The translations under genes and the position numbers were made by a program. Below are positions 2,852 to 32,000 of a stretch of DNA of 32,000 bases, piece by piece (positions within the stretch are counted from its first letter, which is position 1; each line of letters begins with the position of its first letter). Below the pieces are notes generated by a model. It saw nothing but the letters and a program-made list of their open reading frames with translations. It had not been told where the DNA came from and made no database searches. This DNA is from Candidatus Saccharimonadota bacterium (GTDB lineage: Bacteria; Patescibacteriota; Gracilibacteria; BD1-5; UBA2023): NCBI GenBank assembly GCA_042852035.1, contig BAAFHK010000002.1, positions 1 to 32,000 of the forward strand. Direction: 5' to 3'.

Positions 2852-2865
2852 TTCATACCATTTTC

Positions 2866-12353: not shown

Positions 12354-12364
12354 CCTATTGTTCT

Positions 12365-13585: not shown

Positions 13586-13591
13586 TATCCT

Positions 13592-13996
13592 ATGGATACT
13601 AATAGTCTCATTATCGAATATTCGAATCAGCCCGCGAATAAGTACATCCTCGAAAATCCTACTATTCGATATCGTGAACACAATCGTGTGTGTGCCGATG
13701 TAGTGGAAGTATTTCTCCTGATTCAGGATGAAGTCATTATCGAAGCATCGTTTGATGGATATATGTCGATCGTCGCGACCGCATGTACGGCAATTACGCT
13801 CGAAGCGAGTATTGGTCTTTCGCTCAATGAAATCCTAACCTATAATGAATCCTATATTCAAAGTCTGATCGGAACCGATATTTCGCCACGCCGACGAAAT
13901 GCATCTCTCATAGGACTCTTGGCAATAAAAAATGCCATTCACCAGTATCGTGATGACGGCATACAGGAAGATTTTAGTGATATATTTATCGACTAG
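13592..13996 (+). CDS. SufU/IscU-like scaffold homolog, degenerate
   Basis: It sits immediately after sufS and has the length and layout of SufU. It keeps RVCAD (compare CGD), but GxGCxIS is replaced by GYMSIV and R.KCA.L by RRRNASL. Confidence 0.55.
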   Translation: MDTNSLIIEYSNQPANKYILENPTIRYREHNRVCADVVEVFLLIQDEVIIEASFDGYMSIVATACTAITLEASIGLSLNEILTYNESYIQSLIGTDISPRRRNASLIGLLAIKNAIHQYRDDGIQEDFSDIFID

Positions 13997-14982: not shown

Positions 14983-14992
14983 AAATTTTGAA

Positions 14993-17140: not shown

Positions 17141-17167
17141 AAGAAAAGGTTGGATTTCCTTCAAAAA

Positions 17168-17374
17168 TTATCGAACAAAATACATAAAGATGGAGAGGAG
17201 TACAAATACGCTCACCATGATAATAGTGATAGTGTGAAGTGTCTTCTCTGGACCACGACGTTCGAATTTTCCAAAATCTCCAGAACCAGGAATGATAGAA
17301 AGTCCAGTACCCTTCGATTGCATCATGATGATGAGAATAACGATAAGAGCAACGACTACAAGGATATAAGTCAT
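17168..17374 (-). CDS. secG: Preprotein translocase subunit SecG
   Basis: 68 aa with two TM segments flanking IMMQSKGTGLSIIPGSGDFGKFERRG, which matches the SecG QxxKG..G signature. Confidence 0.8.
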   Translation of the reverse strand: MTYILVVVALIVILIIMMQSKGTGLSIIPGSGDFGKFERRGPEKTLHTITIIMVSVFVLLSIFMYFVR

Positions 17375-17460
17375 AAAAATCAGTGTAAAAAAACGCGACT
17401 ATTGTATAAAGAAACCCTTTTTTTGCAAATTGTCTTTTTTCTGTTTTTTTTGGATTTTTT

Positions 17461-17481
17461 CTCACTATATGATATAGTGAG
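17461..17481. promoter_or_regulatory. Perfect 21-bp palindrome upstream of the pilin-like array (candidate operator or 5'-UTR hairpin)
   Basis: ctcactatat-g-atatagtgag: 10-bp arms around a single central nucleotide. It ends 18 nt before ATG 17499. Confidence 0.35.
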
Positions 17482-17498
17482 CGAAATTACTTTTCTCT

Positions 17499-17894
17499 AT
17501 GCTTCGCTTTCTTCTGACCATCTATTTTGTTATCGTAAGTACGTTCTCGAGTCTTTTTGTTTTTGCTGAGGGGGTCAATGATATTGCGAGTCCTGATTTT
17601 CAGGTCAGTACCTGTGATATGGATCCAATGCATCAAAATTGCGGTTCCTTTACCATTACTGGAAAAGATGCATTTCAGCTTCTGCTCGGGAAAGTCTCCA
17701 CGATTTTACTCTATATGGTTCCGATTATTGCTGCCGTTTCCTTTATGGTGGCAGGATATTATTATGTCCTGTCAGCTGGCGATAGTGAGAAGGTGAGTCA
17801 AGCAAAAACGATTATTAAGTGGAATATTGTGGCGGTATGTGTTGCATTTTTCTCCCTCACGATCATAAAAATTATCCAATATATCATCACATAA
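17499..17894 (+). CDS. T4SS-pilin-like (TrbC/VirB2-like) small membrane protein, paralog 1
   Basis: Signal peptide, then two hydrophobic helices flanking the motif LSAGDSEKVSQAKTII. Confidence 0.6.
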   Translation: MLRFLLTIYFVIVSTFSSLFVFAEGVNDIASPDFQVSTCDMDPMHQNCGSFTITGKDAFQLLLGKVSTILLYMVPIIAAVSFMVAGYYYVLSAGDSEKVSQAKTIIKWNIVAVCVAFFSLTIIKIIQYIIT

Positions 17895-17899
17895 TTCAC

Positions 17900-18256
17900 A
17901 TGCAACGATTTCTTTTCCTTCTTGCTTTCCTTCTTCCTCTTCCTATTTCTATTGTTTCAGCGGTTGCTGAAGTTCTTGATCCAACGCGAGATTCATGAGT
18001 ATGAAATGGTATGCTTCCTGTTCCAAATGCCGATGGCGCTGATGTTATAGGTGCTATTATTGCTTATGGTATTGGCGTGGTTGGTATTCTTGGAGTGATT
18101 GCGATTACGTGGGCGGGGATTCAGATTATCTATGCAGCAGGCGATGATGAGAAGGTAAAAAAAGCTCGCTATACCATTATCTATGGCCTCATCGGAGTGC
18201 TTCTTGCGGGTATGGCCTATGGTATTATTAAGTTTGTTGGCTCTATTCAGATATAA
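17900..18256 (+). CDS. T4SS-pilin-like small membrane protein, paralog 2
   Basis: ATG 17900 is joined to track ORF 18011 through two TGA codons. Signal peptide MQRFLFLLAFLLPLPISIVSA. Motif YAAGDDEKVKKARYTII. Confidence 0.6.
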
Positions 18257-18265
18257 TTATTTTTT

Positions 18266-18622
18266 ATGAAACAGATTTTTTGATTCATCTTCGCGTACGG
18301 GTTCTTTCCATTGCATATGTTTGCGGCGGGAGCGAGTGATTTTGTATTTGGTCGAAATTTCGAAGGAAATATTTTTCGTGATTCCACTTCCTGGACGATT
18401 ATGCGATTTTTCTCGTATGCGGAGGAAATCTTACTTCGGGTCGCTCTTCCGCTTATTGTTGTGGGAGTTTCGATCTATGTCGCCTATGAGCTCTTGACCG
18501 CTGAGGGGGATGAAGAAAAAATGAAAAAAGCATGGAAAGCACTTTCGTATAGCGTGATTGGTTTAATCACGGTCATGTGTGCCTATTTCTTTGTGACGAT
18601 TGTTTCGCAAATTTCTTTCTAA
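18266..18622 (+). CDS. T4SS-pilin-like small membrane protein, paralog 3
   Basis: ATG 18266 is joined to track ORF 18311 through TGA 18281-18283. Motif LTAEGDEEKMKKAWKAL lies between two hydrophobic helices. Confidence 0.6.
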
Positions 18623-18635
18623 TACCTCCTCTCTT

Positions 18636-19061
18636 ATGTGGCGTTTTCTCTCTTTTCTTCTGTGCTCTTTCTTTCCTCTTGGATTTCTCTTTGCGGATAC
18701 TACTGCGACTACGAATTGTACCTTTGAAGCCAACCAGACGGCCAATGCTGCACAGTTTCTCAAAAATTGTGCACAGGATACTCCTGGTATTCCGCCAGGA
18801 AATACTTCTGATATTAAAGGAGTGAAAGAACGAATTGCGAATATCGCAAAAAAGGTTATACAGTTTGGAGCACTCTTTGCTGTAGGGGCACTCGTATTTG
18901 CTGGGATACAATATACAACCGCATATGGCGATGATGAGAAGTTAAAACATGCGAAAACAACAGGAATTTTCGCAGTAGTTGGACTCCTTCTTCTCATGGC
19001 TTCATTCGGACTTGTGGATATTTTAGTCCGGTTTATCTATGAATTAGTCGGTAATACTTAG
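18636..19061 (+). CDS. T4SS-pilin-like small membrane protein, paralog 4
   Basis: Signal peptide MWRFLSFLLCSFFPLGFLFA. Motif TTAYGDDEKLKHAKTT lies between two hydrophobic helices. Confidence 0.6.
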   Translation: MWRFLSFLLCSFFPLGFLFADTTATTNCTFEANQTANAAQFLKNCAQDTPGIPPGNTSDIKGVKERIANIAKKVIQFGALFAVGALVFAGIQYTTAYGDDEKLKHAKTTGIFAVVGLLLLMASFGLVDILVRFIYELVGNT

Positions 19062-19072
19062 TCGTGATCTTC

Positions 19073-19753
19073 ATGGTTCGTTCTCTTTTTTTGTGTATTT
19101 TTCTGTGTTTGCTTTGAGTCTTTCCTCTTTTTGCAGGAGAGGGTTTTGTAGTGAATACGATTGGTTCGGTAAAAAATGCAGAAGGAAGAAAGCAAATGAT
19201 CGAGGAGGTACTCTCTGCTGATACGCTTCGCTTTGGATATAGTGCCCTCTCGATTGTTATAGATGCAAAACAAACAGAGCCTCGTGGAAAAATGACAGGC
19301 CGTTCCATCACTCTTTCTCCGTATGTGGCTCGAGATAGTGAATTTATCAAATTATTAGCTCATGAGATCGGACACTATGTAGATATCTACTACCTGATTC
19401 CGAATGGAGGAAATGATCTATCGAATCTGTTTTATTCGATTAGTTGGCAGGATAAAACCGTAAAAAAATCAGGAGAAGGGCTCTCGAGTTTTGTTTCAGG
19501 GTATGCTGCGACGAATCAGTTCGAGGACTTTGCGGAATCCTTTGTTTTCTATATGTTTCATAATGATGAATTCGCTGATCGTGCCTTGCGTAATGATTCG
19601 TTACGTCAGAAGTATCTATTTTTTTCTGAACATGTTTTTATTCATAGGGAATTTGTAGGAACGGATTTTCGGACTCAGACGATCCCGAGTTATGTATGGG
19701 ATACGACGAAGATTCCTATTTCTGTGAAAAAATACTTGAATTCCCTCGAATAG
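19073..19753 (+). CDS. Secreted putative zinc metallopeptidase (HEXXH)
   Basis: ATG 19073 joins track ORF 19151 through one TGA. Signal peptide MVRSLFLCIFLCLLGVFPLFA. The motif LLAHEIGHYVD has a downstream acidic FEDFAESF segment. Confidence 0.6.
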
Positions 19754-19947
19754 TCTATATACTCCCTCCACGATTTCCTTGGTGGAAAGTTCAGTGAAAA
19801 TACGGTTTTTACTGATTTGTTCATCAAGTTTCTAGTTCTCCTTTTGTTGATATTTCATATTGGACGATTCAAGTGCTTGATAACATCTCATTCTTTTTTC
19901 ATTGCCAATATACGGGCAATCTGAATGCTTTCTTATTATTTTTTGTT

Positions 19948-21189
19948 ATGTCAAACATTTTTGGCGATACGCATGATATCGCTTTTGGTACTTTTTCTGA
20001 TGAGAAAAAGACATTTTCGGAGAAACCACGTTCGCAGGCGCCTGTATCCAAACCTGTTCGAGCACCTTCATCATCGATGTACCATCGTCCGATAGAATCT
20101 CGAAAGCCCGTGAGTCGTGAACGTTTCCATGGAACCAGTACTCCAGCACCCACTCCAAAGATTCCAAAAAATCCACTCATTCAGCTGGTTGAATCGATGA
20201 AACCGTCTTTTTTGCCACAAAATGAAGAGGGGACACTCCGATTTGTTCTTCTTTCTGAGGCAACTGCTTCGGATCCATTTTTCCTTTTGCGCTACGAAGA
20301 AACAACTCTTCTTTTTGGAACGGGATTTGGAAGTGTAGAAATGATGGGAACATCCTATCCGACATTTCCCGATATGCGTCTCGCCTATAGCGAACGGGAT
20401 CGACTCGCAGGTTGGGTCATCCTCGATCCAGGTTTTTCCATCGAACCATTTCGTATGATTCTTGAAGGACTTGGTTTTCCTCATGTGTACGGTTCTCGTG
20501 AAGTTATTGCAAAAATTCGTGATAGTATAAAGGATCAGGATTTTCTCGATCGTTGTCGCTTTTTCGAGCTTTTTTCTCCGTCGACTCCAGAGCGAAAAAT
20601 TGCTGATATTACTCTGAATCATACGGATGTAGGGGTGATGATTGCTGCGGGAAATACGAGTTTCATCGATGGAATTCATGGGAGCAATACTCCTCTTTCA
20701 TGAGTTCCCGTCCTTCGAAAGGATCAGTGAGTATTTCTTCTTGGCTTGTCGAATGAGCATATCGAAGTAGGGGAAATTATCGAACTGAAAAAATCATTAC
20801 CCACGAAACATTCGCTTCGTTTTACCTTTGACACATTTTTTCTCGATAAAAATTCTGTGGGTCTTCAGGCAGGATATGTCCTGAAAGATCGAAAGGAACT
20901 CGCAGAAAATGGGATACTTACTTTTGTGATCGAGGAAGATGGGGTGGCTCGCGCTATCGTTGGACATATTTTTATCGATTCTCGGGGTTTTGTGCATTCT
21001 CATGAGATGATGAGTGTCCATAAGGAGATTCTCAAAGGAATCCGTCATACCTATGAACAGTCGATTCTTGCAAATCCTCGTATCGAACGAGGAGAGCTCG
21101 TTCAGACATTTCGTCGCGAAATTACGAAATACTGTTATCTCCTGACGGGTCGAACCCCCGTGGTCATGCCGATTATTATCGAACGGTAA
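19948..21189 (+). CDS. RNase J-like paralog lacking the metallo-beta-lactamase HxHxDH motif (likely non-catalytic)
   Basis: Track ORFs 19873 and 20746 fuse across TGA 20701 and 20728. LRFVLLSEATASDPFFLLRYEETTLLFGTGFG parallels the RNase J N-terminus. The position of THGHxDH reads LDPGFSIE. The C-terminal part (YVLKDRKELAENGILTFVI ... IDSRGFVHSHE ... GRTPVVMPIIIE) parallels the RNase J C-terminal half. Confidence 0.65.
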
Positions 21190-21309
21190 TTTTCATTTAC
21201 TTCGTATGAGAATCTCTGAGTAAAAAGAGCTACTTCTTCAACGTATGACAACATCTTTATAAAATTCCTTCCCAAATAGATTAGATTCTACATTATAACC
21301 AAAATATTT

Positions 21310-23178
21310 ATGCGAAATAAACGATTCCAGAAGCATCCTGGAGAACAACATACGATGTTGGGATATGCCCCGAGAAACTTTTTTGATTCTGGAAAGAAAA
21401 TGCAGAGTAACCTCCGTCCTGGAGATTCCTTCCTGTTCGAAGATTCCTATCGACCAAAACGTTCGTATCCGTTTTTGACGCCCGTTCAGGCACTCAAAAA
21501 ATTTCTCGGACACCACGAAGATCGAGTCAAGCCGCTCGCAAAGGGGACGATGCGAGTGATTCCATTCGGAGGAACCGAGCAAGTCGGACTCAACTGTATG
21601 GGATTCGAATATGAAGATGAGATGATTATCATCGATATGGGTCTTCAGTTCGCTGATCAGTATCAGTATGGTATTAATTCCTCGATTCCTGATCTCACCT
21701 ACTGTCGTGGGAAAAAAGTAGTCGGTGCGTGTATTACCCACGGACATATCGATCATATCGGAGGAGTATACTACCTCATGGAGCAACTCGGACGCGGTAT
21801 TCCTCTCTATGCGACGGCGATGGCCTATGAGCTCATCAAGCTGAAACAATCAGATATGGGAGCAGCGCTTCCAAACCTGAAGGAATATGTGCGCTATCAG
21901 CCCGTTCAGATGGGAAAACACTTTCAGATTACTCCATTTGTGGTGGATCACTCGATTCCTGATTCGGTCGGACTGTTGATCGAGACACCCGTAGGTCGAT
22001 TTGTGCATACAGGAGATTGGAAGTTCGATCGAAATCCACTTCCGAATCGTCCATCGACGAACTATGAATATCTCGAAACTCTCGGGAAACGGGGAGTTCG
22101 CGCACTCTTTTCGGATTCGACGAACGCTCATCTGCTCGGATCTTCGATTTCTGAATCAGAGGTGGTCCACTCGATCGAAGATATTTTCGAAAAAGCGCCC
22201 GGTCGTGTCATTACCGCGACGTTTTCTTCGATCATCGATCGTGTAATGCTCATTATTTCGACGGCTGAGAAATATAACCGTAAGGTCGTACTCCTCGGTC
22301 GTTCGATGAATAACTATATCGATATCGCGATCAAGCTCGGATACGTCCGTCCAAAACCGGGAACGATTATTTCGATGGAGGATGCGGCTCGACTCCCCGA
22401 TGATCAGGTAACGATCTGTTGTACGGGGGCTCAGGGGGAGCGCTATGCGGCGCTCATGCGTATCGTGACAGGAGAATCTCGCGATACAACTCTGAAAGCC
22501 AATGACACGATTATTTTCTCATCATCCGTGATTCCAGGAAATGAACGTGCCGTCCAAGGACTCTTCGATCTTATTACCCAACAAGGACCAAAAATCCATC
22601 ATTATAAGGAATCAGAAATCCATGCAGGTGGACATGCGCGTGAAGAGGATACCAAGAAAATGATCAATCTCCTTCAGCCAGAGTACTATGTACCGATCTA
22701 TGGGTTCCCGCATATGCTTCGAGGAAATGCTCGAAATGCCTATGAACTCGGATATTCGAAGGATAAGGTGATTATCCTGAAAAATGGAAAAATTCTCGAA
22801 TTTGGTCCTAAGGCCGTTCGAGAAACCGACGAATATGCATCCCATAAGCTCATTACGGTGGATGGTCGTATGGTCGGATATACCGCTGAGAAAGAACTCC
22901 ATGATCGATTCCAGATTTCGTCTCAGGGAGTGCTCGTGATCGGTATTGTGAAGAAATCGAGTGGATTCGCGATCAAGTATTCGACCGTCGGACTTCCACC
23001 AGTCGCTCAGATCGCCACTCTCGAAAAATCGCTCGATATCGCGATCCAGGACATCCTGAAGGATCTCACTCGATTCAAGGATGCAGAGAGTTTCGTAGCT
23101 CACGTCGAACGAAAAGCATGTGATATCTGTCTCCATGAGATCGGAAAGGAGCCGAAAGTGGTGGTGGTAGTGCAGTAG
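21310..23178 (+). CDS. rnj: Ribonuclease J
   Basis: MRVIPFGGTEQVGLNCMGFEYEDEMIIIDMG and ITHGHIDHIGG (HxHxDH), plus beta-CASP-like regions. 622 aa with no in-frame TGA and a TAG stop. Confidence 0.9.
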   Translation: MRNKRFQKHPGEQHTMLGYAPRNFFDSGKKMQSNLRPGDSFLFEDSYRPKRSYPFLTPVQALKKFLGHHEDRVKPLAKGTMRVIPFGGTEQVGLNCMGFEYEDEMIIIDMGLQFADQYQYGINSSIPDLTYCRGKKVVGACITHGHIDHIGGVYYLMEQLGRGIPLYATAMAYELIKLKQSDMGAALPNLKEYVRYQPVQMGKHFQITPFVVDHSIPDSVGLLIETPVGRFVHTGDWKFDRNPLPNRPSTNYEYLETLGKRGVRALFSDSTNAHLLGSSISESEVVHSIEDIFEKAPGRVITATFSSIIDRVMLIISTAEKYNRKVVLLGRSMNNYIDIAIKLGYVRPKPGTIISMEDAARLPDDQVTICCTGAQGERYAALMRIVTGESRDTTLKANDTIIFSSSVIPGNERAVQGLFDLITQQGPKIHHYKESEIHAGGHAREEDTKKMINLLQPEYYVPIYGFPHMLRGNARNAYELGYSKDKVIILKNGKILEFGPKAVRETDEYASHKLITVDGRMVGYTAEKELHDRFQISSQGVLVIGIVKKSSGFAIKYSTVGLPPVAQIATLEKSLDIAIQDILKDLTRFKDAESFVAHVERKACDICLHEIGKEPKVVVVVQ

Positions 23179-23198
23179 CTTCATATTCTCAAATAACT

Positions 23199-23229
23199 AA
23201 AAAATCCCAAGGAACTCTTGGGATTTTTC
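23199..23229. terminator. Bidirectional hairpin terminator between rnj and the Gly/His-rich peptide gene
   Basis: aaaatcccaag / cttgggatttt is an 11-bp perfect stem with loop gaact. The hairpin has A- and T-runs on either side. Confidence 0.7.
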
Positions 23230-23230
23230 T

Positions 23231-23419
23231 TTAGTGATGTCCATGTCCGCCTCCACCGCCTTTGCCTTCGCGGAAGTTCTTCATCGCATTGGCTCCACTG
23301 ACGGCTCCAAAGAATCCGCCGATCATCGATGTGATCCCAAAATCGAATCCACCTCCACCTCCTCCTCCGTGCCCATGATCATCATGACCATGATCGTCGT
23401 GCCCGTGACCTCCTGACAT
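23231..23419 (-). CDS. Small Gly/His-rich protein with a central glycine-zipper-like hydrophobic segment
   Basis: MSGGHGHDDHGHDDHGHGGGGGGGFDFGITSMIGGFFGAVSGANAMKNFREGKGGGGGHGHH. ATG start and TAA stop, flanked by a terminator. Confidence 0.55.
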   Translation of the reverse strand: MSGGHGHDDHGHDDHGHGGGGGGGFDFGITSMIGGFFGAVSGANAMKNFREGKGGGGGHGHH

Positions 23420-23515
23420 ATGTGTATGATTATAAAATAACTCACATATTTTAGTACATAAAAAATATAAGTCAATAAAACTTTCTTCGTTTTCAGAAAA
23501 ATGAGGATTCTAAAT

Positions 23516-23543
23516 TTGCATTTCTTCCTCTTTTTTCTATAAT
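23516..23543 (+). promoter_or_regulatory. Sigma70-like promoter for tRNA-Ser(GCU)
   Basis: TTGCAT (23516-23521), a 16-nt spacer, then TATAAT (23538-23543), 10 nt upstream of the tRNA 5' end. Confidence 0.5.
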
Positions 23544-23553
23544 CCGCGCACGT

Positions 23554-23646
23554 GGTGGGTTACTCAAGTGGCTGAAGAGGCGGGTTTGCTAAACCTGTAG
23601 GGTGCCGCAAGGTGCCGCCGGGGTTCGAATCCCCGGCCCACCGCCA
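23554..23646 (+). tRNA. tRNA-Ser (anticodon GCU), encoded CCA
   Basis: GGTGGGT acceptor pairs with GCCCACC. Anticodon arm CGGGT-TTGCTAA-ACCTG, long variable arm, T-arm CGGGG-TTCGAAT-CCCCG. 93 nt. Confidence 0.9.
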
Positions 23647-25415
23647 TAAAGGTCAATATCCGAAGAAGAAGTCAGTAATGGCTTCTTTTTCTTGTTTTTA
23701 GAGTTCGAACCTTCCATTATGCTTATGTCAGTCTTTTTGGGGTCTATTAGAACCCCACGTTTATAAATACCCTTAAATAAAGGCTTTAAGTCAAAATATA
23801 TAATCTCTTTGTTTTGTATAACAATACTATTAAAAATAGAAGCAGCAATATGCTGTTTTTTTCTTGGTGAAAAGTTCTTAAATCCTGTTGCTAATTCTTT
23901 CGCGTATTTTAATGGTTCTTCTATCTGTTCTTTGTTATACTCCGCCACATCATCAAAGTTATTTAATCTATTTTTAATTTCTTCAATATCTCTTTTAATC
24001 TTTTTGATGGCAATTCCTAATTCCTCAATCATATCATCATCAGTTTCTTTTCCATATCGCTTTACATAGAGTTCTTTTTCACTTTCCAAGCGTCCTAATT
24101 CTTGGTTGAGTTTATGTTTTGTATCCTCTTGGAGCTTTCACTGTTTTTCTAATTCAAACTGAATTACTTTTTCTAACATCTTCAAATCAAAAGCGTTTAG
24201 TTTTAATTTTGATATTACTTTATCAAAAATCATATCTTCTAATCGTGTTCCAGAAATTGATGTTTTATCACAAAGAGTTTTATCATTACAAGAACAACGA
24301 TAATATTGATATCGTTGAACCTTTTTCTTTTTGGTTTCTGCTGTATAGAAACGAAGTGTTTTATACAATTCTGGGTGTTCTTTATTCTGACAAGAACATT
24401 GAGTTATTCACTTCCAAACATATATCTCACCATCATCCAGCCATTTCCCACGACTTCATACTGTATTTCATTCGCGCACATTTTTACAAGCATCAAATAA
24501 CTTTTTGTCGATAAGTTTTGGATATGCTCCTAATTGATCCAATAATTCTGTATATTCAACAAAAGCAAAATTACCTTTCTCTATTTTAAGTTCAGGGTAT
24601 TTTTCTAATAAATATTCTATTTTTTCAGTGGTTAATTTCTTGTATTTCACAACCACTCTTCACCAATAAAACTCATTACATAAAATACGTTCTATTTCGT
24701 GTCTATCAAAATCATATAAAATCTCTTCTCACTTCTTAATGGTATATCTTTTATATCATCTCTTTTTGAATTCATCAGTAAGGCTATCGTAGGTATATTT
24801 TCCAGTGCTATATAACTCAAAACATTCCTTTACTACTTTTGCGGCATCGTGATTGTTATCAAATGCTACAAAATTATTATCTTTTTTTCCGATACTTATG
24901 TATCCATATGGCATATTACCCGCTATACGTCATTTTTTATATGTCTGATCCATATTTATGATACTTTCCAGCGACTTTTCTTTGCTATCAAACATTGCCT
25001 CATTAAGGAGTTCCACAAAAGCCCTTTTTCAATCTAAACTTCCGCAGTCAATCAGTCTTTCTTTTTTGGATAATACTTTAATCTTATCGTCCAAAACTAA
25101 CTGTGTTATGTCATTTCCTTCTTCAAAGTTTCGTGATAATCGCGAAATAAAATACACATAGATATAATCCACCTTTTTTCATATACCTTTAATATTTCTC
25201 TTTCTTACTTCATCCAGCATATTACTAAATTGGTCTCGTTTTCATTCAGTATATGCTGACTTATTATCTTGAAAACTTCAAATAATCTCAAATCATTTTT
25301 TTTCACATATCTCCGTCAATTCCTCTAATTGTTTATCAATAGATATCGAAGTATCTCGGTTTTTCTCACTACTACGGCGAGCATAGATAAAAACGGTAGG
25401 CTTTTTATTATTCAT
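23589..25415 (-). CDS. Large serine recombinase (integrase type)
   Basis: Hand translation gives 608 codons with about 14 in-frame TGA = Gly. The N-terminal resolvase domain is VFIYARRSSEKNRDTSISIDKQLEEL..KKGFEIIGSFQDNKSAYTEGKRDQF..VDYIYVYFISRLSRN. There is a recombinase domain, a zinc-ribbon-like segment QCSCQ..YYRCSCNDKTLC, then a coiled coil. The TAG stop at 23589-23591 lies inside the tRNA-Ser gene on the antisense strand. Confidence 0.8.
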
Positions 25416-25423: not shown

Positions 25424-25810
25424 TTAGTTATGTCTTTCATATTGCTTTATATATTCTTCTGGGTCTTTTCGCCATTGTTTCATAAGTTTTATAAATGAAC
25501 TTCGATAATGTATCATCATAATTAACAAGGCTTTTCATAATAACTCGTTCCTTTGTTCCTCAGTAATTGTATTAGTATCTACCGCGATATTTCATATTCA
25601 AATCTGTTTTTCACCAACTTGCCCAAGCATACCAATAACGATACGGTATCTTACCATCATCGTTCATCTTCATAAATCTTGATAATTCTTGGCTATCATT
25701 CGGGCTTCTTCATATGATAATACTCATCAATGATTTCTATCATTTTCATCTAAAATAGACGCTATTATACTATCTAATAATTTTTCCTCCGCAGACTGAT
25801 ATGTTGGCAT
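25424..25810 (-). CDS. Hypothetical protein (128 aa), directly upstream of the recombinase
   Basis: The frame is open for 128 codons in very AT-rich DNA if 7 TGA codons are read as Gly. ATG at 25808-25810, TAA at 25424-25426, and 8 nt before the recombinase start. No recognisable motif. Confidence 0.45.
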
Positions 25811-26227
25811 AATTTCTAACTTAATGAAGTAAATACTATGATTATATACATTAGTTAGAAAATACAACTTTTTCATCTTTTCAAAAGTTAAGTCTTAAAT
25901 ATTTTATTCTGATTTCAGCGGGAAGGTCATACCCGATATAGTAAAACCTCCCTTAAAACCATATCAAGTATGCCATTAAATAGTCAGTCACTGCCACTCA
26001 GTCAAAAAATGACTTATCGCCTGTTTGTCTTTCCCCAAAACATCGATATTTAACCAAATCCATCCTATTCAGATTTCATATGGGTCAGGAATACCTCGCA
26101 TTATTGGCACATTGCGACCCCGTGATTGTAGTTTTATATCCCGACAGGCTCACTACGCAGGGACGGTTGTTTTTACTCAACCAGCCATATTTGATGAATA
26201 GAACACTTTTAACTTTTTTTCAAACAG

Positions 26228-26253
26228 AAATCTTGAAAAAGAAGATTTTTTTT
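26228..26253 (+). terminator. Hairpin plus T-run (terminator-like)
   Basis: aaatctt / aagattt stem with loop gaaaaag, followed by tttttttatttttctttttt. Confidence 0.45.
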
Positions 26254-26391
26254 ATTTTTCTTTTTTGAAAATACCATTTTTTTCCTTTACCTGTGCGGTT
26301 TCGTGTTATCACGAAAAATAAAAAGAAAAAATCATTTGAGAAAATTATAAAAGTGTCGTATCAGAAAATACTACCTTTTAACTTTTCTTAT

Positions 26392-26889
26392 ATGAACCAA
26401 GAAACAAAACTCCAATCTATAACACTGGAAGATATCAATACTAATACCATTACCAAACATACTTGAAGCGATTGATTTGATGGTTCATCATTTATTTGAA
26501 TAGGACTATTGTTTCTTTTCCTTATTTATATGCTTCACGATGGCAGTAATAACTCAAATACCTCTTCATCTTCAAAACCTTCAAATCAAAATAAGAAATG
26601 AATAAAACTTGATAATAATGAAAAGAAATTATCGGATAAAGTTCGTGCCTTGGAAATGACGCTTAAAAACTTGGAATTAAAAAAGCGTGAAGCTGAAGGT
26701 GAAATCAGAAAAATTGAAATGAATAGCTTATCTCAAACTGACACCGAAGCCACTTATGATAATGAATTCAAAATAGACAAACTTACTATGAAAATAGAAG
26801 AAATCGAAATGATGATAGAAAAGAAAAATGAAGAGCTGGAAGACGCAAAAATAAAACTTGAACAATATCAAAACGAAAACTATTTATAA
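26392..26889 (+). CDS. Membrane-anchored coiled-coil protein, hypothetical
   Basis: ATG 26392 joins track ORF 26650 through 4 TGA codons. TM segment FIGIGLLFLFLIYML, a Ser/Asn-rich linker, then heptad-like KVRALEMTLKNLELKKREAEGEIRKIE... The frame is also open upstream to 25984, so the start is uncertain. Confidence 0.55.
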
Positions 26890-26905
26890 CCTAACAAAAA
26901 TACAT

Positions 26906-27616
26906 ATGGATATACAAACTATGAATGAACTTTTTATCACGAGCAAAATGAACTCATTCTTTTCATTCAAGAAAACAGATAAAAGAAAAACACTTGTTGA
27001 AGAAGTAATAGAACTCAAATCTTATACGATTATCCGACTTTATCTTACAAATGAAGAAGTATTGAAAACAAAACAAGAACATGCTATATTTAAGCCTGTT
27101 ATCGAGAGCCTATTGTTTCTTTATAATCATCTCTCGCAGCGGTATTATCCAAATGTTGGATTTACGCCGCTTATTATCAACGGACATAAGTTTCCAACGT
27201 GTATTGTTATATTTCGGTGACGACAACAAGGAACAAGTGTCCCACCAAGTATTGGCTACCAAAAAATTACCAATATAAATCTTCAAATTGATGAAAAATG
27301 ACCGTATGACGAAGAAAATACCCAAAACGATATAACCCAAGCAAATCCTAATGAACGACATCTAACGCCAGAAAATCAGCGTATATTCCAGCGTATTTAT
27401 GCGATGCTTGTAAATAGAAACATTTCCATAAGGAAAATATTTGATATTTGAATAAAACAATCCCAAGCCAGAGCCATCTACAAGAAACTGGAAGGGCTTT
27501 GATTATTTCAAGTGAAGGCATTCAATAATAATGAAAAGATGTATTTCCCTTGAAACTATGGAATATTTACAGAAGAACATATAAAAGAAATAATGAACCA
27601 AGAAAACCAAGACTAA
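26906..27616 (+). CDS. Hypothetical protein with a possible C-terminal winged-helix DNA-binding region
   Basis: Track ORF 26858-27220 continues through 5 TGA codons to TAA 27614-27616. The C-terminal segment ENQRIFQRIYAMLVNRNISIRKIFDIGIKQSQARAIYKKLEGLGLF loosely resembles FtsK-gamma-type wHTH. This is a weak judgement. Confidence 0.5.
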
Positions 27617-27646
27617 AATATATAACTTTTAGGATAAAGTTATCCA

Positions 27647-27673
27647 AAAACACCCCGTGATATGGGTGTTTTT
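27647..27673 (+). terminator. Rho-independent terminator
   Basis: aaaacaccc / gggtgtttt stem with an 8-nt loop and a T-run. Confidence 0.6.
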
Positions 27674-27754
27674 CCGTGTTCGTTCGTGATGATACAGTAG
27701 AGCAAAATTGCCTTATTGAGTTGCTTTTTCCTTTGAAAGTGATATTATATCCGT

Positions 27755-27876
27755 GCCTAAAAAATATTATTCTCTAACACACGTTCGTTTTTTTATTTGT
27801 CATAACGAAATTAAGGGGGCTTATAGCCCAACCCCTTTTTTATGACGAATAAACGAGGGAATAATGTTTTTTAGGC
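27755..27876. repeat. Long imperfect inverted repeat / extended hairpin (about 122 nt)
   Basis: The outer arms gcctaaaaaatattattc and gaataatgttttttaggc pair over 18 bp with one G-U. The inner arms gtcataa / ttatgac and flanking cgttt..att pair with bulges. The apical part aagggg-gcttatagcccaa-cccctt contains a nested gggct/agccc stem. Confidence 0.6.
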
Positions 27877-27947
27877 AAATTAAACATCTGGTGCTTTAAG
27901 TCCCCTTTGTTTTTTGCCAATTGAACCAAAATGGAATTGGAAAATCA

Positions 27948-27987
27948 AAAAGACTTTACACCAAAAATGTGAAGTCTTTATTTTTTA
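27948..27987 (+). terminator. Hairpin plus T-run ending 13 nt before the start codon at 28000
   Basis: aaagactttaca / tgtgaagtcttt stem (one G-U) with loop ccaaaaa, then attttttat. Confidence 0.5.
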
Positions 27988-27999
27988 TCCCGAGTAATT

Positions 28000-28353
28000 A
28001 TGTCTAAATATATTATTTCCCATCAACTTCGTATGAATATCCTTAAACACGAAGATTTTTGATTAAACTCACCAGAAATATTAAATGTTACATTATTTCA
28101 AACGGATAATCCAAGCGATATTGCTTATCCTATGTGTGCCAGCATAATTGAAAAATATTTCGATATTTTTTATGGGGAGCATAAATTAAACCTTATTTGT
28201 GAAATAGATAAGGAGCGTGTTCGTGAAAATTATAGTGTTCCATATGCTATTTATCAAACAGATTATTTTGGAAAAAAGATATTTATCGGTTGGTGAAGTG
28301 TGGAGATTTATGATACAATACAAGGAACACCAGAGGCTTACCTTAAATTATAA
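28000..28353 (+). CDS. Hypothetical protein (117 aa)
   Basis: ATG 28000 to TAA 28351-28353, with two in-frame TGA codons. It is absent from the standard-code track because of those TGAs. No motif recognised. Confidence 0.5.
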
Positions 28354-28358
28354 TATCA

Positions 28359-28997
28359 ATGTCTAAATACTTCAAAAACTCATCCTATACTGAAAACTCC
28401 CTTAAAAAGGAATATAGAAAGCTTGCCCAAATATATCACCCAGATAAAGGTGGTAAAGCAAGTATTTTTAAGGAAATGAAAGAAGAGTATGAAGTCATTC
28501 TCAAACAACTCAAAAATAATACTTATACCGCTGAACCCATAAAAGCAGAAAAGACTTATCAGAAAACTCCCCAACAAACAAAAACAACAAAAACAGAACC
28601 TAAAAAGAAAAAACAAGAACCCATTAACCATATTGAACCAGATTTTGTTTTCTTACGTTCAATGTTTAAGAAGGTTCGTATCTTTTCCATCAAGCATCCA
28701 CGACTTTGTTCTAATACTATACATACAACACTTGCTATAATTTTTGGACTTCTTGGAATAATATTGTTTCTTGGTAGCTGATATATATTGGCTTGAATAT
28801 TGCTCGTATATTCATTTACAACATTAATCATCTTCAAACATTATCTTTTTACTTTTTTATTGGCACTCGTTTTTACGCAATTCTGACATACACAGAACCC
28901 AGAATATTTTATTACCATTATTCTTGTAGCCACTATATTTAGTATGCCATTTATTTTGGTTCGTGCTGACGATGCTACACCCAATTTTTATCACTAA
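28359..28997 (+). CDS. J-domain (DnaJ-like) protein with C-terminal transmembrane segments
   Basis: LKKEYRKLAQIYHPDKGG carries the HPD motif. A Lys/Thr-rich linker follows, then hydrophobic segments. Track ORF 28359-28781 extends through 3 TGA codons to TAA 28995-28997. Confidence 0.7.
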
Positions 28998-29008
28998 TTT
29001 TTCTTTTT

Positions 29009-29548
29009 ATGAAAATATTTATCTTACTTCTGATTATTGCGAGCCTTATTGGTTTATATTTTATGATGAAGAATGAACGATTGTATAAGTGAAGAAACTA
29101 TATGGGAATATTTTTTATAGTTCTCCCTATTCTTTTTATTTTATCAGCATCATTTCTTCCTTTTATTGATTGATGAAGTAATAATGAAAGTGCGACATTA
29201 TTTCAATTTATTAAGGAGGCTGCTGATTTTTCTAAATCTAATTGAATACGCATATCTCTTATAGTTCTTATTATTTGGATGTTTCTTTTCGGATATATCC
29301 AAAGAAAAAGATATAGTCATTGACTTGGTATTTATATACTTTCAGTATTTATGTCATCCAGTGTAGTATTTTTTATTATGAATATTGCGGATGCTACAAG
29401 TTTTATATCAAAACAAAGTAGCCATATAAATTACCCAATCATTGGAGATACCTCATTCTTTATTATCATTTTTATAGCCATAGCATTTATACTTTATAGT
29501 TTTATCTATACCAAAGAAATCACTAAAAAGATACATAGTAAACAATAA
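29009..29548 (+). CDS. Polytopic small membrane protein (179 aa), hypothetical
   Basis: ATG 29009 joins track ORF 29351 through 5 TGA codons. There are about 5 hydrophobic segments. Confidence 0.55.
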
Positions 29549-29583
29549 TACAAAAATAGATTATTCCCTTAACCTCTTTTCTT

Positions 29584-29961
29584 ATGAAAAAACTGATAAC
29601 CTTATTCCTATTTTTCACTTTTATATCTGTTGTTTCCGCTGGGACGAGTATTCCTATACAACCAACAAAAGCAAAATCAATAATTCTTGATTTTAGGAGT
29701 TCAAATTATGTTCCAAAATATCAGGAATGCCAGTCTGAAACTGATATTGTTCGCAGTATTTGAAACCTGTATTATAAAGACATATCAAACCAACTTACAG
29801 AATGGGCGAATGAAATCAAAAGGACACGACCACTCACAATAGACGAAGCCGATGAATATACCCAAATAAAGATGATATTCCTTTCAGAATATAGCAGACC
29901 ATCAAACCGAACTTTTGCTCTTTGTGATGAGATGATGGATACATTTAATCAAAACAAATAA
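29584..29961 (+). CDS. Secreted hypothetical protein (125 aa)
   Basis: Signal peptide MKKLITLFLFFTFISVVSA, one in-frame TGA, and TAA at 29959-29961. Confidence 0.55.
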
Positions 29962-30008
29962 TCAACGAAACCAATAACCAAAATTACTTTTTATAACCGT
30001 TTCTTTTT

Positions 30009-30569
30009 ATGAAAAAACTCCTTATTACCGCATTTGTGGCACTTACAGTTTCCACTTCTCTCGTTTATGCTGGTGCTGGTGGTTGGTCTGATAGTGATGC
30101 TCCAATTTATGATTTTTCAACGGGCGCTGTTGTCAAAACAGGTTATGCCACTTCACCAATGTCAGATAAGGCTTCACGGATGGGTGCTATTAGCTTCAAA
30201 GTCCCTTGAATAGATAATCTTGGTTATGATATCAGTCATATCTATTTTGTTGATACAAAAGGAAATAAAGTATATCTCAATACCTTCAAAGCAAAAGAAA
30301 ATGGTGTATTTCATACCGTGTATGCTATTACGCCACGAACAGAGGCAGTAATACAACAAAATATGGGGCTACTATTTATCTCACGAACGAATTGTAGTAT
30401 AAACGACCCAATAAAGAAGGCGAAACTCTGCGACAGAATATCTAAAACAGAGTTCAATACTATTGGTCGTAAATATAAGTCTATCGGTGTGAAACTTCCA
30501 GATGGATCAACAAAAGAAATGAAAATCACTTTTTCAAATCAAGAAACCATTCAAGATTGGTATCAATAG
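30009..30569 (+). CDS. Secreted hypothetical protein (186 aa)
   Basis: Signal peptide MKKLLITAFVALTVSTSLVYA. Track ORFs 30009 and 30318 fuse across TGA 30207-30209. TAG stop. Confidence 0.6.
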
Positions 30570-30655
30570 TTTTTCTTTTTGATTTTGAAAAAACAAGATT
30601 TTATCTATTGTATAGAAAATTTGCGCAACATAGTATGATTTTCTATAATATTTTT

Positions 30656-30725
<70 letters not shown>

Positions 30726-30775
30726 TTCTTGATACTTCGTAATCAAAATAAGAACACATAATCCCATCTGATATA

Positions 30776-30803
30776 TTGACAAAATAATTATATAGACTAT
30801 AAT
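30776..30803 (+). promoter_or_regulatory. Consensus sigma70-like promoter for the gene starting at 30838
   Basis: TTGACA (30776-30781), a 16-nt spacer, then TATAAT (30798-30803), 35 nt upstream of ATG 30838. Confidence 0.55.
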
Positions 30804-30837
30804 GGAACGGTAATTTTTATTTTCTTACATATTCGCT

Positions 30838-31596
30838 ATGAACTTTCAAGAACAACTTCGTTATGATAAACTTCAACTTATGAAGTCAAGACGACAAAAA
30901 AGAGCAACTTCAACTGTTCAGGCAACAACAGAAACAACAAAAGTTGCCGTTGAATGACCAAAAACCATAGAAATCGCAGGCAAGAAAATCCTTGCGATGC
31001 CACTTGAAACTATGGCACTCACCCCAGAACAACAAAAGAAGTTTGAAGAAGCAGGTGGTCTTATGAACCCTGCGCCAAAAATAGCAACAGCAGATAAAAA
31101 TCAAGACAAGATGATGTATTGGTCTGAAAGTTTTGAAACACTTCAAGCAGAAATCGACGGAACGCTTTACAAGGGTTTTGACCTCTTCAAAAAAGTTTAT
31201 GAAGCATTCCCAGATATTCGTTCTATGACAAAAGGCGAAGCCACAGAAGCAGGACTTTACCCAACTATTCATTACCGCAACTTTGCCGCTCGCAAATGGA
31301 TGGCAGAGATGAACGGCGGACACCTTGCTACTTTGGATAAGGATTATAATGGCGAACTCCGTGATATCTTTAACGCAGCAGAAGGAAAAACAAACCTTGA
31401 AAAACTCGCTGCTATGGGTCAAGCACCGCTTGGCTGACGTTATGCTAATGATGCGAAGGTGTATTACTTGGGGGATTGGGCGGGATTGGGTTCTGGCTCG
31501 CTCAATGGTGATGGTGATGTCCGCGTGTTGGGCGCGCACCGTGATAAGGTCGGGCGCTGACAATTACTGATATTGGCAGGGGAGCGCTGTCAGTAG
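30838..31596 (+). CDS. Candidate DGR target protein with a GC-rich C-terminal putative variable region
   Basis: ATG 30838 joins track ORF 30997 through TGA 30955, continues through TGA 31435 and 31558, and ends at TAG 31594-31596. The C-terminal segment FAARKWMAEMNGGHLATLDKDYNGELRDIF ... AKVYYLGDWAGLGSGSLNGDGDVRVLGAHR resembles the ligand-binding end of C-type-lectin/DUF1566-type DGR targets. The local GC content is far above the surrounding element. Confidence 0.55.
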
Positions 31597-31697
31597 TGTC
31601 GTTGTATTGGATAAATAGTCTCTTTGACACTTTGTCTCTTTTGGTTTCAGAAAATCGTATATACAGTTAATTTTGAAGTCTATATAACAGATGGGAT

Positions 31698-31719
31698 ATC
31701 CGCTTTATGCGGATTTTTC
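31698..31719 (+). terminator. Rho-independent terminator / hairpin
   Basis: atccgc / gcggat stem with loop tttat, followed by a T-run. Confidence 0.55.
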
Positions 31720-31744
31720 TGTATTTCTTCATTTCAAAAACCGT

Positions 31745-32000
31745 ATGGCTACTTATGACCTTCTTCCTGTATATAAGACAACCTATGATTTTCTATTACA
31801 GACTTTTCAATTTTCAAAAACATTTACCCGTGAATACAAATACACTATCTGACAAGAACTCAAAAATGAAACCATACGACTCATACTGGCAATATATCGT
31901 GCCAATGGATCACAAGCAAAAAGATATGAACTCCTTGATGATGCTCGGACAACATTGGAAACCATACGACTTCTTTTGCGTCTGACAAAAGACCTAAAAC
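31745..32000 (+). CDS. Avd-like four-helix-bundle protein (DGR accessory variability determinant / S23-IVS family), partial at the window end
   Basis: MATYDLLPVYKTTYDFLLQTFQFSKTFTREYKYTI-G-QELKNETIRLILAIYRANGSQAKRYELLDDARTTLETIRLLLRLTKDLK fits the remembered pattern lP.y.k..d....i......fP...ry.lG..l......l...i..An........L..a...l..lr.llrla.dlk. The Gly in the lG position is encoded by TGA at 31850-31852. Confidence 0.6.

What the first reader, a model, noticed from the sequence alone, without database searches (positions are those of the whole stretch)
30838..32000. Probable front half of a diversity-generating retroelement: target gene with a GC-rich C-terminal block followed by an Avd-like gene
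The gene order matches the canonical DGR layout of target(VR)-avd-TR-RT:
- The partial last gene fits the Avd/S23-IVS four-helix-bundle pattern.
- The preceding gene ends in a block of about 120 nt (roughly 31438-31560) whose GC content stands out sharply from the AT-rich element.
- That block encodes a Gly/Asp/Tyr/Trp-rich stretch ending in VRVLGAHR, like the variable ligand-binding tip of CLec/DUF1566-type DGR targets.
- GC-only runs (gggcgcgcacc, ggtcgggcgc) sit where an IMH would be.

The TR and reverse transcriptase would lie just beyond nt 32000. A DGR carried on a serine-recombinase element in a code-25 host would be notable.
Basis: partly seen in the sequence, partly recalled or inferred. 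Interest (0 to 1): 0.8.

Follow-up and report, generated by a model that had tools for sequence, protein, structure and literature searches.

The report
DGR front half on integrative element
The end of this window holds the variable target gene and the accessory gene of a diversity-generating retroelement, a known system that rewrites the tip of a binding protein, and the whole cassette sits on a small mobile element inserted next to a serine tRNA gene in a bacterium that reads TGA as glycine.

Summary
Nt 30838-32000 hold a promoter, a 252-259 codon target gene and the first 85 of about 117 codons of an Avd gene. The target gene's last 186 nt (31426-31611) are a variable repeat (VR).

The window ends before any template repeat (TR) or reverse transcriptase (RT), and its own contig could not be found. 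Four relatives about 90% identical in DNA continue as avd-TR-RT. Their TRs match the window's VR, and 18 of 22 mismatches fall on TR adenines (p=7e-8).

Corrections:
- The GC runs are mutated adenine sites, not an IMH.
- The window copy has one extra base near 31550. It cuts off the conserved C-terminus.
- One relative (L011) has this target and Avd followed by an IS, with no matching TR.

The target family is tiny, has no annotation, and is only remotely like Fib_succ_major/DUF1566 lectin-fold targets. An empty-site relative shows that everything from 23648 onward, including the serine recombinase and the DGR, is an insertion at tRNA-Ser. TGA=Gly is supported (11 of 15 substitutions). This is a new member of a known kind, of moderate interest.

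The parts
23554..23646 (+). tRNA-Ser(GCT). Its 3' end (core CACCGCCAT, 23639-23647) is the left junction (attL) of the insertion that carries the DGR.
   Evidence: ARAGORN and Rfam. Homology to the empty-site relative L014 stops at 23647. Junction comparison.
23589..25415 (-). Large serine recombinase, 608 codons with 13 in-frame TGA. As an ORF it runs across attL into the antisense of the tRNA.
   Evidence: Pfam Resolvase (E=8e-16), Recombinase (E=1.5e-11) and Zn_ribbon_recom (E=2e-3). TGA count.
25424..30569 (.). Cargo of the insertion: eight ORFs without family matches. Exceptions are a DnaJ-domain membrane protein (28359-28997) and two proteins with N-terminal signal-like segments (29584-29961, 30009-30569). 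All use TGA as sense.
   Evidence: The stretch 29091-30569 is syntenic in L011.
30656..30719 (+). (AGCC)16 tetranucleotide repeat upstream of the target promoter. Copy number differs among relatives.
   Evidence: window 16, L011 14, L009 10, L006 >=18, L007 >=29; absent in L001.
30776..30803 (+). Sigma-70-type promoter-like site (TTGACA, 16 nt, TATAAT; 12 of 12 matches), 35 nt upstream of the target start codon.
   Evidence: It is conserved in L001, L007, L009 and L011, and duplicated in front of the second target in L011.
30838..31618 (+). DGR target gene. As assembled, the ORF ends at 31596 (252 codons). Without the extra base near 31550 it would end at 31618 (259 codons), like its homologues.
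   Evidence: There are 48 homologues and 55 representatives in 1.84 billion proteins. The AlphaFold model of the homologue P0002 has pLDDT 90.
31426..31611 (+). Variable repeat (VR), the 3' end of the target gene. It is 86-88% identical to the TRs of L001, L006, L007 and L009.
31546..31550 (+). One extra base (a T in 'AAGGTCGG'; exact position ambiguous within these 5 nt). It is absent from all three TRs and all six other VRs aligned, and it shifts the frame.
31698..31714 (+). Terminator-like hairpin (ATCCGC/GCGGAT followed by a T run) between target and avd. It is also present in L001.
31745..32000 (+). avd (accessory variability determinant), first 85 of about 117 codons, cut by the window end. 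The TGA at 31850 is GGA in L001 and L006.

Best explanation
Nt 30776-32000 are the front half of an avd-TR-RT type diversity-generating retroelement (architecture B1 of Wu et al. 2017). A strong promoter drives a small target gene whose C-terminal 62 codons (31426-31611) are the variable repeat. A hairpin and the avd gene follow.

By analogy with four relatives about 90% identical in DNA, these positions are extrapolated rather than seen:
- avd should end near 32098.
- A 188-nt template repeat should lie near 32243-32430.
- A 392-codon reverse transcriptase should lie near 32455-33633.

The mechanism is inferred from the family. TR RNA is reverse-transcribed by RT with Avd, adenines are copied unfaithfully, and the cDNA replaces the VR. 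This rewrites about 26 codons that carry A at position 1 or 2 in the TR, mostly AAY.

The target is a divergent relative of the Fib_succ_major/DUF1566 (CLec2) class of lectin-fold binding domains.

The whole cassette is cargo of an integrative element of about 10.6 kb. The element carries a large serine recombinase and is inserted at the 3' end of tRNA-Ser(GCT), between 23647 and 23648, in a TGA=Gly (code 25) bacterium.

The copy in the window carries a 1-nt insertion in the VR that removes the conserved last strands. This is either an assembly error in a heterogeneous region or a currently defective allele.
For: Avd. It matches bAvd (E=2.2e-9) and DivGenRetAVD (E=4.5e-9), with no rival family.

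Relatives continue as avd-TR-RT. L001, L006, L007 and L009 align to the window through its last base at 89-90% identity. The L001 RT carries IGNLTSQ and YVDD.

TR/VR mismatches at TR adenines in relatives:
- L006: 20/21.
- L009: 18/19.
- L001: 17/22.

The window VR against relatives' TRs:
- Against the L009 TR, 18/22 mismatches are at A, while A makes up 26% of the TR (binomial p=7e-8).
- Over 7 VRs, A columns differ at 40.5% per column per VR, against about 2% for C, G and T.

Protein family. Over 37 family proteins, codons with A at TR position 1 or 2 have 2.56 bits of entropy. Other VR codons have 1.29 bits and residues outside the VR have 1.00 (Mann-Whitney p=1.6e-7).

Fold class:
- The Foldseek BFVD best hit is a Fib_succ_major phage protein (E=4.4e-3), and C-type lectins top the PDB list.
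- hhalign of the family against the L011 target B gives 72.7% probability and E=3.2e-5.
- Target B's TR-encoded peptide matches PF09603 at E=2.4e-5.
- Some RT relatives are fused to PF09603.

Mobile element:
- The L014 empty site reads tRNA-Ser|TGTT...tRNA-Met.
- L011 has the same locus with a recombinase remnant, the DGR, then a right end next to tRNA-Met.
- L009 joins the right end to the left end.

Genetic code.
Against: - No TR or RT is present in the window.
- Its own contig was not found in any collection. The downstream half is therefore an extrapolation.
- In L011, the relative sharing the window's chromosomal locus, the orthologous target+avd is followed by an IS. The only TR there belongs to a different target.
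- The window's VR carries a frameshift found in no other copy, which would fit decay.
- Fold assignment is weak. There are no Pfam or PDB sequence hits, and the best Foldseek PDB E-value is 0.28.
- No read data were available to show ongoing variation.
Confidence: 0.8

Rival explanations
1. This is an orphaned or decaying front half. The target and avd are genuine DGR parts, but in this genome they are no longer followed by a cognate TR (for example an IS or another cassette follows). The VR is then frozen and drifting.
For: L011 shows exactly this for the orthologous target at the same locus: avd, then an rve-type IS, then a second promoter-targetB-avd-TR_B-RT. TR_B is not homologous to VR_A. 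The window's VR has a unique 1-nt insertion that truncates the conserved C-terminus. Standalone target homologues without avd or RT exist in L002, L003 and L008.
Against: Four of five relatives with sequence beyond avd have TR_A-RT directly downstream. The window's VR differs from those TRs almost only at adenines, with little other drift: 4 non-A changes in 188 nt against the L009 TR. A single extra base in a hypervariable region of a metagenome assembly is a common artefact.
Confidence: 0.15
2. The DGR is chromosomal, and the serine-recombinase element is a separate neighbouring insertion. The DGR is then not cargo of the recombinase element.
For: In L001 the cassette lies directly after an ApbE gene, with no recombinase or (AGCC)n. 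The recombinase is reduced to a remnant in L009 and L011. The right end of the insertion is outside the window.
Against: The empty site in L014 has only 90 nt between tRNA-Ser and tRNA-Met, so everything in between is inserted. In L011 the recombinase remnant abuts tRNA-Ser. The sequence after the DGR ends in GCACCGCCA|TGTT next to tRNA-Met, with the same 9-nt core as attL. L009 joins that right end to the recombinase-side left end.
Confidence: 0.1
3. It is not a DGR. The GC-rich C-terminal block is a compositional quirk, and the last gene is an unrelated four-helix-bundle (S23 IVS-like) protein.
For: The Avd scores are just under the curated cut-offs. The target has no family annotation.
Against: The cut-offs are missed only because the gene is truncated at the window end. 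The full-length orthologue is called bAvd. Orthologous loci contain TR and RT with adenine-specific TR/VR differences.
Confidence: 0.02

Closest known systems
Bordetella phage BPP-1 DGR (mtd-avd-TR-brt); architecture B1 of Wu et al. 2017 (PMC5758913)
   Same: Same gene order on one strand. The VR lies at the extreme 3' end of the target gene. An Avd accessory gene is present, the TR lies between avd and RT, the TR is rich in AAY codons, and differences fall at adenines.
   Different: The carrier is a serine-recombinase integrative element, not a phage tail locus. The host reads TGA as Gly. The target is a protein of about 259 residues with no Mtd or FGE-sulfatase match. The TR itself contains TGA codons. 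No GC-rich IMH like that of BPP-1 is evident: homology simply ends at 31611, where VRs read A and TRs read T.
Legionella pneumophila DGR (LdtA) and other 'category d' / CLec2 targets (DUF1566, Fib_succ_major) (PMC5758913)
   Same: It is a cellular DGR of architecture B with a short target. The variable C-terminal domain is remotely related to this class (hhalign to a Fib_succ_major-like sister target; best Foldseek hit is a Fib_succ_major protein). My recollection is that the Legionella element also sits on horizontally acquired DNA.
   Different: The target family does not reach any Pfam model. The window's copy has no lipoprotein signal, though the homologues P0021 and P0035 have one. The C-terminal motif is ...AVSSVVVLDK rather than the usual ...G.SVRC..
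DGRs of Candidate Phyla Radiation bacteria (Paul et al. 2017, cited in PMC10221324; 'CPR set' of PMC5758913; clade 2 of PMC8144416)
   Same: The host belongs to the same radiation (Gracilibacteria-like, code 25). Like many CPR VR classes, the target has no annotation.
   Different: Ninety percent of the CPR set has architecture B3, TR-(avd)-RT (PMC5758913). This one is B1. Its RT's next relatives, at 50-55% identity, are mostly labelled Bacteroidota or Marinimicrobia, with one labelled Gracilibacteria.
Integrative elements with large serine recombinases that target tRNA 3' ends
   Same: It has the Resolvase+Recombinase+Zn-ribbon recombinase next to the junction. It is inserted at the tRNA 3' end, and a short common core (CACCGCCAT) is shared by the attB-, attL-, attR- and attP-like junctions.
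   Different: The cargo is a DGR plus small secreted or membrane ORFs. Recombination itself was not observed. The right end is outside the window.

Membership tests
Diversity-generating retroelement (DGR) | A reverse transcriptase of the DGR clade (motif 4 [I/L]GxxxSQ, YxDD) in the cassette | not testable with these tools
   It lies beyond nt 32000, and no RT is in the window. The window's contig was not retrievable. In relatives 89-90% identical in DNA, the RT follows with IGNLTSQ and YVDD.
Diversity-generating retroelement (DGR) | A TR/VR repeat pair whose differences fall at adenines of the TR | tested here: met
   This was tested by proxy, because the window's own TR is not in the window. 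The window VR against the orthologous L009 TR has 18/22 mismatches at A (p=7e-8). Within relatives the counts are 20/21, 18/19 and 17/22. A columns vary 20-fold more than other columns over 7 VRs.
Diversity-generating retroelement (DGR) | Avd accessory gene adjacent to the target and TR | tested here: met
   PF22296 bAvd at E=2.2e-9 and NF033474 DivGenRetAVD at E=4.5e-9, on 85 of about 117 residues. Both are just under the curated cut-offs because of truncation. The full-length orthologue is called bAvd.
Diversity-generating retroelement (DGR) | VR inside an ORF, at its 3' end, with variable codons designed to avoid stops (AAY) | tested here: met
   The VR at 31426-31611 ends 7 nt before the stop of the conserved frame. 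The orthologous TRs carry 13 AAN codons, of which 10 are AAY. Caveat: the window copy is frameshifted near 31550.
Diversity-generating retroelement (DGR) | IMH / IMH* at the 3' end of the VR and TR that sets directionality | tested here: inconclusive
Homology ends at 31611, where all VRs read GGATAA and all TRs read GGTTAA. No GC-rich 14-nt element like that of BPP-1 is present.
CLec2-type DGR target (DUF1566 / Lcl_C, Fib_succ_major) | Match to PF07603 or PF09603 | tested here: not met
   No Pfam hit for the window protein, for 37 family members or for distant relatives. No PDB sequence hit either.
CLec2-type DGR target (DUF1566 / Lcl_C, Fib_succ_major) | C-type-lectin-like fold with the variable residues on its C-terminal face | tested here: inconclusive
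   The AlphaFold model has pLDDT 90. Foldseek against BFVD gives a Fib_succ_major phage protein as best hit (E=4.4e-3, probability 1.0). Against the PDB, the best hits are C-type lectin domains at E>=0.28 and TM 0.35-0.43. hhalign to the Fib_succ_major-like target B of L011 gives 72.7% probability and E=3.2e-5.
Large-serine-recombinase integrative element | Recombinase with Resolvase, Recombinase and zinc-ribbon domains | tested here: met
Large-serine-recombinase integrative element | An insertion bounded by att junctions relative to an empty site | tested here: met
   The left junction was tested directly. L014 is collinear with the window up to 23647 and then reads TGTT...tRNA-Met. The right junction was seen only in relatives: L011, L001 and L006 read GCACCGCCA|TGTT. 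The attP-like junction is in L009. The window's own right end is outside the window.
Genetic code 25 (TGA = Gly) | In-frame TGA in conserved genes, exchanged with Gly codons in relatives | tested here: met
   Comparing the window with L014, 11 of 15 TGA/non-TGA codon pairs are GGN and none is TGG. The avd TGA at 31850 is GGA in L001 and L006. No tRNA with anticodon UCA lies in the window, so the decoding tRNA was not seen.

The most novel reading that the evidence does not exclude
A compact integrative element of about 10.6 kb, native to TGA=Gly bacteria, moves a Bacteroidota-like DGR between genomes by serine recombination at tRNA-Ser. Three further features would go with it:
- A 4-kb deletion derivative holds little more than the DGR (L009, whose ends join right end to left end).
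- Whole target+TR modules are exchanged between conserved flanks (L011: target A and target B share the same promoter and the same downstream sequence from the VR end onward).
- TGA codons in the TR serve as diversifiable Gly codons (Gly/Trp/Cys), which a standard-code DGR cannot do.

Standalone copies of the target elsewhere in related genomes (L002, L003, L008) would then be diversified in trans.
Probability: 0.3. Interest if true: 0.6.

Novelty: new member of a known kind. Interest (0 to 1): 0.42.

Why it matters
DGRs are already known to be abundant in CPR bacteria, so finding one is not surprising. Four things this locus adds are worth recording.

- **Target family.** It is a very small, unannotated family: 55 representatives among 1.84 billion proteins. 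It can now be tied, weakly, to the lectin-fold CLec2 class.
- **Mobility.** The case that the cassette is mobile cargo is unusually clean, with an empty site, an occupied site, degraded copies and an attP-like junction.
- **Genetic code.** This DGR works inside a recoded genome, and its template itself uses TGA as a mutable sense codon.
- **Target exchange.** One natural example shows the target and TR replaced together between fixed flanks.

For episymbiotic bacteria with tiny genomes, a portable hypervariable surface-binding module could be a direct route to changing host or partner range.

Tried and rejected
Retrieving the window's own continuation failed.
- Exact 39-mer scans of viral, genome and metagenome contigs found nothing.
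- Look-ups of the table-11 sub-ORFs found nothing.
- Every gene of the insertion contains TGA, so no code-independent product could be looked up.

A TR upstream in the window was rejected. There is no second copy of the VR and no RT motif.

Sequence-level assignment of the target was rejected. Pfam, NCBIfam, PDB sequences and a full HMMER search of 1.84 billion representatives gave no annotated relative.

I considered that the structured sequence at the element's right end might be a tmRNA or tRNA. It is a 73-nt hairpin ending in GCACCGCCA and has a GGTTTCGAC motif. ARAGORN and Rfam found nothing, so the idea is left open.

I considered that the L009 terminal overlap might be an assembler circularisation artefact. 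The overlap is only 94% identical, so it is not a simple k-mer overlap. At 2.9x coverage, a mixed-strain path cannot be excluded.

My first greedy ORF call at 20797-23184 (-) was spurious. The real gene there is RNase J on the + strand.
Full report
**1. What is in the sequence**

The window only gives long ORFs if TGA is read as sense. With that reading, an ORF starts at ATG 30838 and stops at TAG 31596. It has 252 codons, with in-frame TGA at 30955, 31435 and 31558. A perfect sigma-70-type site (TTGACA, 16 nt, TATAAT) lies at 30776-30803.

After a terminator-like hairpin (31698-31714), a second ORF starts at 31745 and runs off the window. That puts it in the top 0.5% of 123-nt windows. Adenine falls to 16.7% there, against 37.6% in the rest of the gene.

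**2. The last gene is Avd**

Its 85 residues match Pfam bAvd (E=2.2e-9; 38.2 bits against a gathering score of 40). They also match NCBIfam DivGenRetAVD (E=4.5e-9). Nothing else matches. Both scores fall short of the cut-offs only because a third of the protein is missing. The full-length orthologue in L001 (117 codons) is recorded as bAvd.

**3. The window stops before any TR or RT**

There is no second copy of the block and no RT motif anywhere in the window. The window's own contig could not be found by exact DNA scans or by exact-protein look-ups. I therefore worked through relatives.

**4. Relatives**

The target protein has 48 homologues in the 5.8-billion-protein collection. It has only 55 representatives among 1.84 billion clusters, and none carries a Pfam domain.

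Four contigs align to the window through its very last base at 89-90% DNA identity:
- L001, a JGI contig.
- L006 and L007, ENA and JGI contigs.
- L009, from activated sludge.

All four continue as avd, a gap of about 145 nt, a 188-nt repeat of the target's 3' end, then a 392-codon RVT_1 gene. That gene contains LPIGNLTSQ and YGRYVDDF.

Within those loci, the repeat pairs differ almost only where the downstream copy has adenine:
- L006: 20 of 21 mismatches.
- L009: 18 of 19.
- L001: 17 of 22.

These are bona fide TR/VR pairs.

**5. The window's block is the orthologous VR**

Window 31426-31611 aligns to those TRs at 86-88%. Against the L009 TR, 18 of 22 mismatches are at TR adenines, which make up 26% of the TR (binomial p=7e-8). 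The few non-A differences are mostly shared with other VRs of the lineage, so they look like TR drift.

Over seven VRs, columns where the three TRs agree on A differ in 40.5% of cases. Columns with C, G or T differ in about 2%.

At protein level, over 37 family members:
- Residues encoded by TR codons with A at position 1 or 2 have 2.56 bits of entropy.
- Other VR codons have 1.29 bits.
- Residues outside the VR have 1.00 bit (Mann-Whitney p=1.6e-7).

Homology between VR and TR simply ends at 31611, where all VRs read GGATAA and all TRs read GGTTAA.

**6.

All homologues end '...AVSSVVVLDK'. In the window that peptide is encoded in a different frame, ending at 31618. The window has one extra base (a T within 31546-31550) that is absent from all three TRs and all six other VRs aligned.

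As assembled, the protein loses the last two conserved strands of the high-confidence model. This may be an assembly error in a heterogeneous region or a genuinely defective allele. Frameshifting TR/VR indels are known in DGRs (PMC5758913). Only reads can decide.

**7. What the target is**

No Pfam, NCBIfam or PDB sequence match exists for the family. An AlphaFold model of the homologue P0002, built with the family alignment, is confident (pLDDT 90).
- Foldseek against viral models puts a 'Fibrobacter succinogenes major paralogous domain' phage protein first (E=4.4e-3, probability 1.0).
- Against the PDB, the top structural matches are C-type lectin domains, but none is significant (E>=0.28).

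Independent support comes from L011, whose second DGR target ('B') ends '...GLSVRFIVDKK'.
- Target B's TR-encoded peptide matches PF09603 Fib_succ_major (E=2.4e-5) and weakly matches Lcl_C/DUF1566.
- The target-A family profile aligns to B over 117 columns (hhalign probability 72.7%, E=3.2e-5). The aligned stretch includes the helix 'NFAARKWMAEMNGGHLATLD'.
- Several RT relatives are ORFs fused to PF09603.

It is not a family membership.

**8. A caution from L011**

L011 shares the window's chromosomal locus: RNase J, tRNA-Ser, then window 29091-32000 at 91% identity. There the orthologous target A and avd are followed by an rve-type IS. After the IS comes a duplicated promoter, target B, a second avd, a TR that matches only target B (11 of 14 mismatches at A), and the RT.

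So an RT is nearby in every relative, but in one of five, target A has lost its cognate TR. I give the orphan reading 0.15 for the window.

**9. The mobile element**

A contig whose RNase J is 99% identical to the window's (L014) is collinear with window 11403-23647. After tRNA-Ser it reads '...CCCACCGCCA|TGTTCC...', with tRNA-Met following 90 nt later. In the window the same tRNA is followed by '|TAAAGGTC...' and the recombinase.

The other junctions fit the same pattern:
- In L011, L001 and L006 the sequence after the DGR ends '...TTTTTAGCACCGCCA|TGTTT' next to tRNA-Met.
- L009 joins that right end to the recombinase-side left end ('GCACCGCCA|TATAGTCG...'). Its two ends repeat each other at 94%.

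The four junctions share the core CACCGCCAT and behave as attB, attL, attR and attP. The recombinase has Resolvase, Recombinase and zinc-ribbon domains. It is intact in the window but reduced to a 3' remnant in L009 and L011, with different deletion end-points.

By offset from L001 and L009, the element in the window would run from 23648 to about 34,280. All its genes use TGA as sense, 13 times in the recombinase alone. It is therefore at home in recoded hosts.

**10. Genetic code**

Between the window and L014, 15 codon positions have TGA in one genome and another codon in the other. Eleven of these are Gly codons and none is Trp. The avd TGA at 31850 is GGA in L001 and L006. One family member and an RNase J relative are labelled Candidatus Gracilibacteria by NCBI. 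Code 25 is supported.

**11. Comparison with what is known**

DGRs are well documented in CPR bacteria (PMC10221324, PMC8144416, PMC11661182). The avd-TR-RT order is the commonest architecture overall, B1 (PMC5758913). However, 90% of the CPR set in that survey has TR-(avd)-RT (B3).

This RT's next relatives, at 50-55% identity, are mostly labelled Bacteroidota and allies. That hints at horizontal origin. I found no paper in the library that describes a DGR specifically in Gracilibacteria, but that is a thin basis for novelty.

**Verdict**

Its extras are a mobile carrier, TGA in the template, target swapping and an unannotated target family. These make it moderately interesting.

Noticed in passing
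window 30656-30719: A perfect (AGCC)16 tetranucleotide repeat lies between an upstream promoter-like site (TTGCGC, 17 nt, TATAAT at about 30623-30651) and the target promoter. The same repeat at the same place has 14, 10, >=18 and >=29 copies in L011, L009, L006 and L007, and is absent in L001. Two contigs break inside it. It could be a slippage-prone switch for target expression.
   Followed up: partly
window 31546-31550: A single extra base in the VR, unique to this copy, shifts the frame and replaces the conserved C-terminal 22 residues with 12 unrelated ones.
   Followed up: partly
window 31435-31437 and 31558-31560; TRs of L001, L006 and L009: The template repeats contain TGA codons (Gly in this code). 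Because the third base is an adenine, the DGR can turn them into TGG (Trp) or TGY (Cys). The window's TGA at 31435 is TGG in L006 and L008. A standard-code DGR could not keep TGA in its template.
   Followed up: partly
window 23589-23647: The serine recombinase ORF, read with TGA as sense, continues across the attL junction for about 19 codons into the antisense of tRNA-Ser. Its C-terminus would therefore differ between the integrated and excised forms.
   Followed up: no
L009 1-4150: This 4.15-kb contig has ends that repeat each other (1-116 against 4035-4150, 94%). It contains only a recombinase remnant, (AGCC)10, the full DGR and a small reverse ORF. It joins the element's right end to its left end. 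It is either a circular or tandem deletion derivative, or a mixed-strain assembly path at 2.9x coverage.
   Followed up: partly
L011 4950-11823; window 30773-30828 and 31611-32000: In L011 two different target genes (A and B) sit between the same upstream 56 nt and the same downstream sequence. The downstream sequence starts exactly at the end of the VR. Each target has its own avd copy (99.6% identical), and they are separated by an IS. This suggests exchange of target+TR modules between fixed flanks. A 30-nt inverted repeat (window 30761-30790 / 31668-31697, 80% complementary) lies in those flanks.
   Followed up: partly
L006 3558-3763; L001 about 6950-7025; L011 about 11750-11823: The right end of the element carries a promoter-like site and a 73-nt hairpin that starts GCGGAGTGCTAAAACGGTTTCGAC and ends GCACCGCCA (z=-2.75). 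In L006 it is followed by a further 133-nt structured stretch (z=-3.5) ending in a 21-nt copy of the tRNA-Ser 3' end. There is no Rfam, tRNA or tmRNA call.
   Followed up: partly
L002 10001-10783; L003 10001-10441; L008 10001-10813: Standalone homologues of the target sit in unrelated chromosomal contexts, with no avd, TR or RT within several kb. Their C-termini still differ from the TRs mainly at adenine positions (19 of 28 and 20 of 37 against the L006 TR for L002 and L003; L008 not compared). They may be trans targets or relics.
   Followed up: partly
window about 17499-18622: Three small adjacent ORFs (131, 139 and 118 codons) share a repeated motif (repeat family D6). In the syntenic relative L014, three of the small genes in the corresponding region carry Pfam T4SS_pilin (PF18895).
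   Followed up: no
window 2775-2940 and 3102-3252: Two tandem tRNA-Met genes are followed by a gene that starts with degenerate 15-nt periodic repeats, which would encode a Thr/Gly/Val/Ala-rich stretch. Downstream lies an ORF of about 1392 codons (3394-7572).
   Followed up: no
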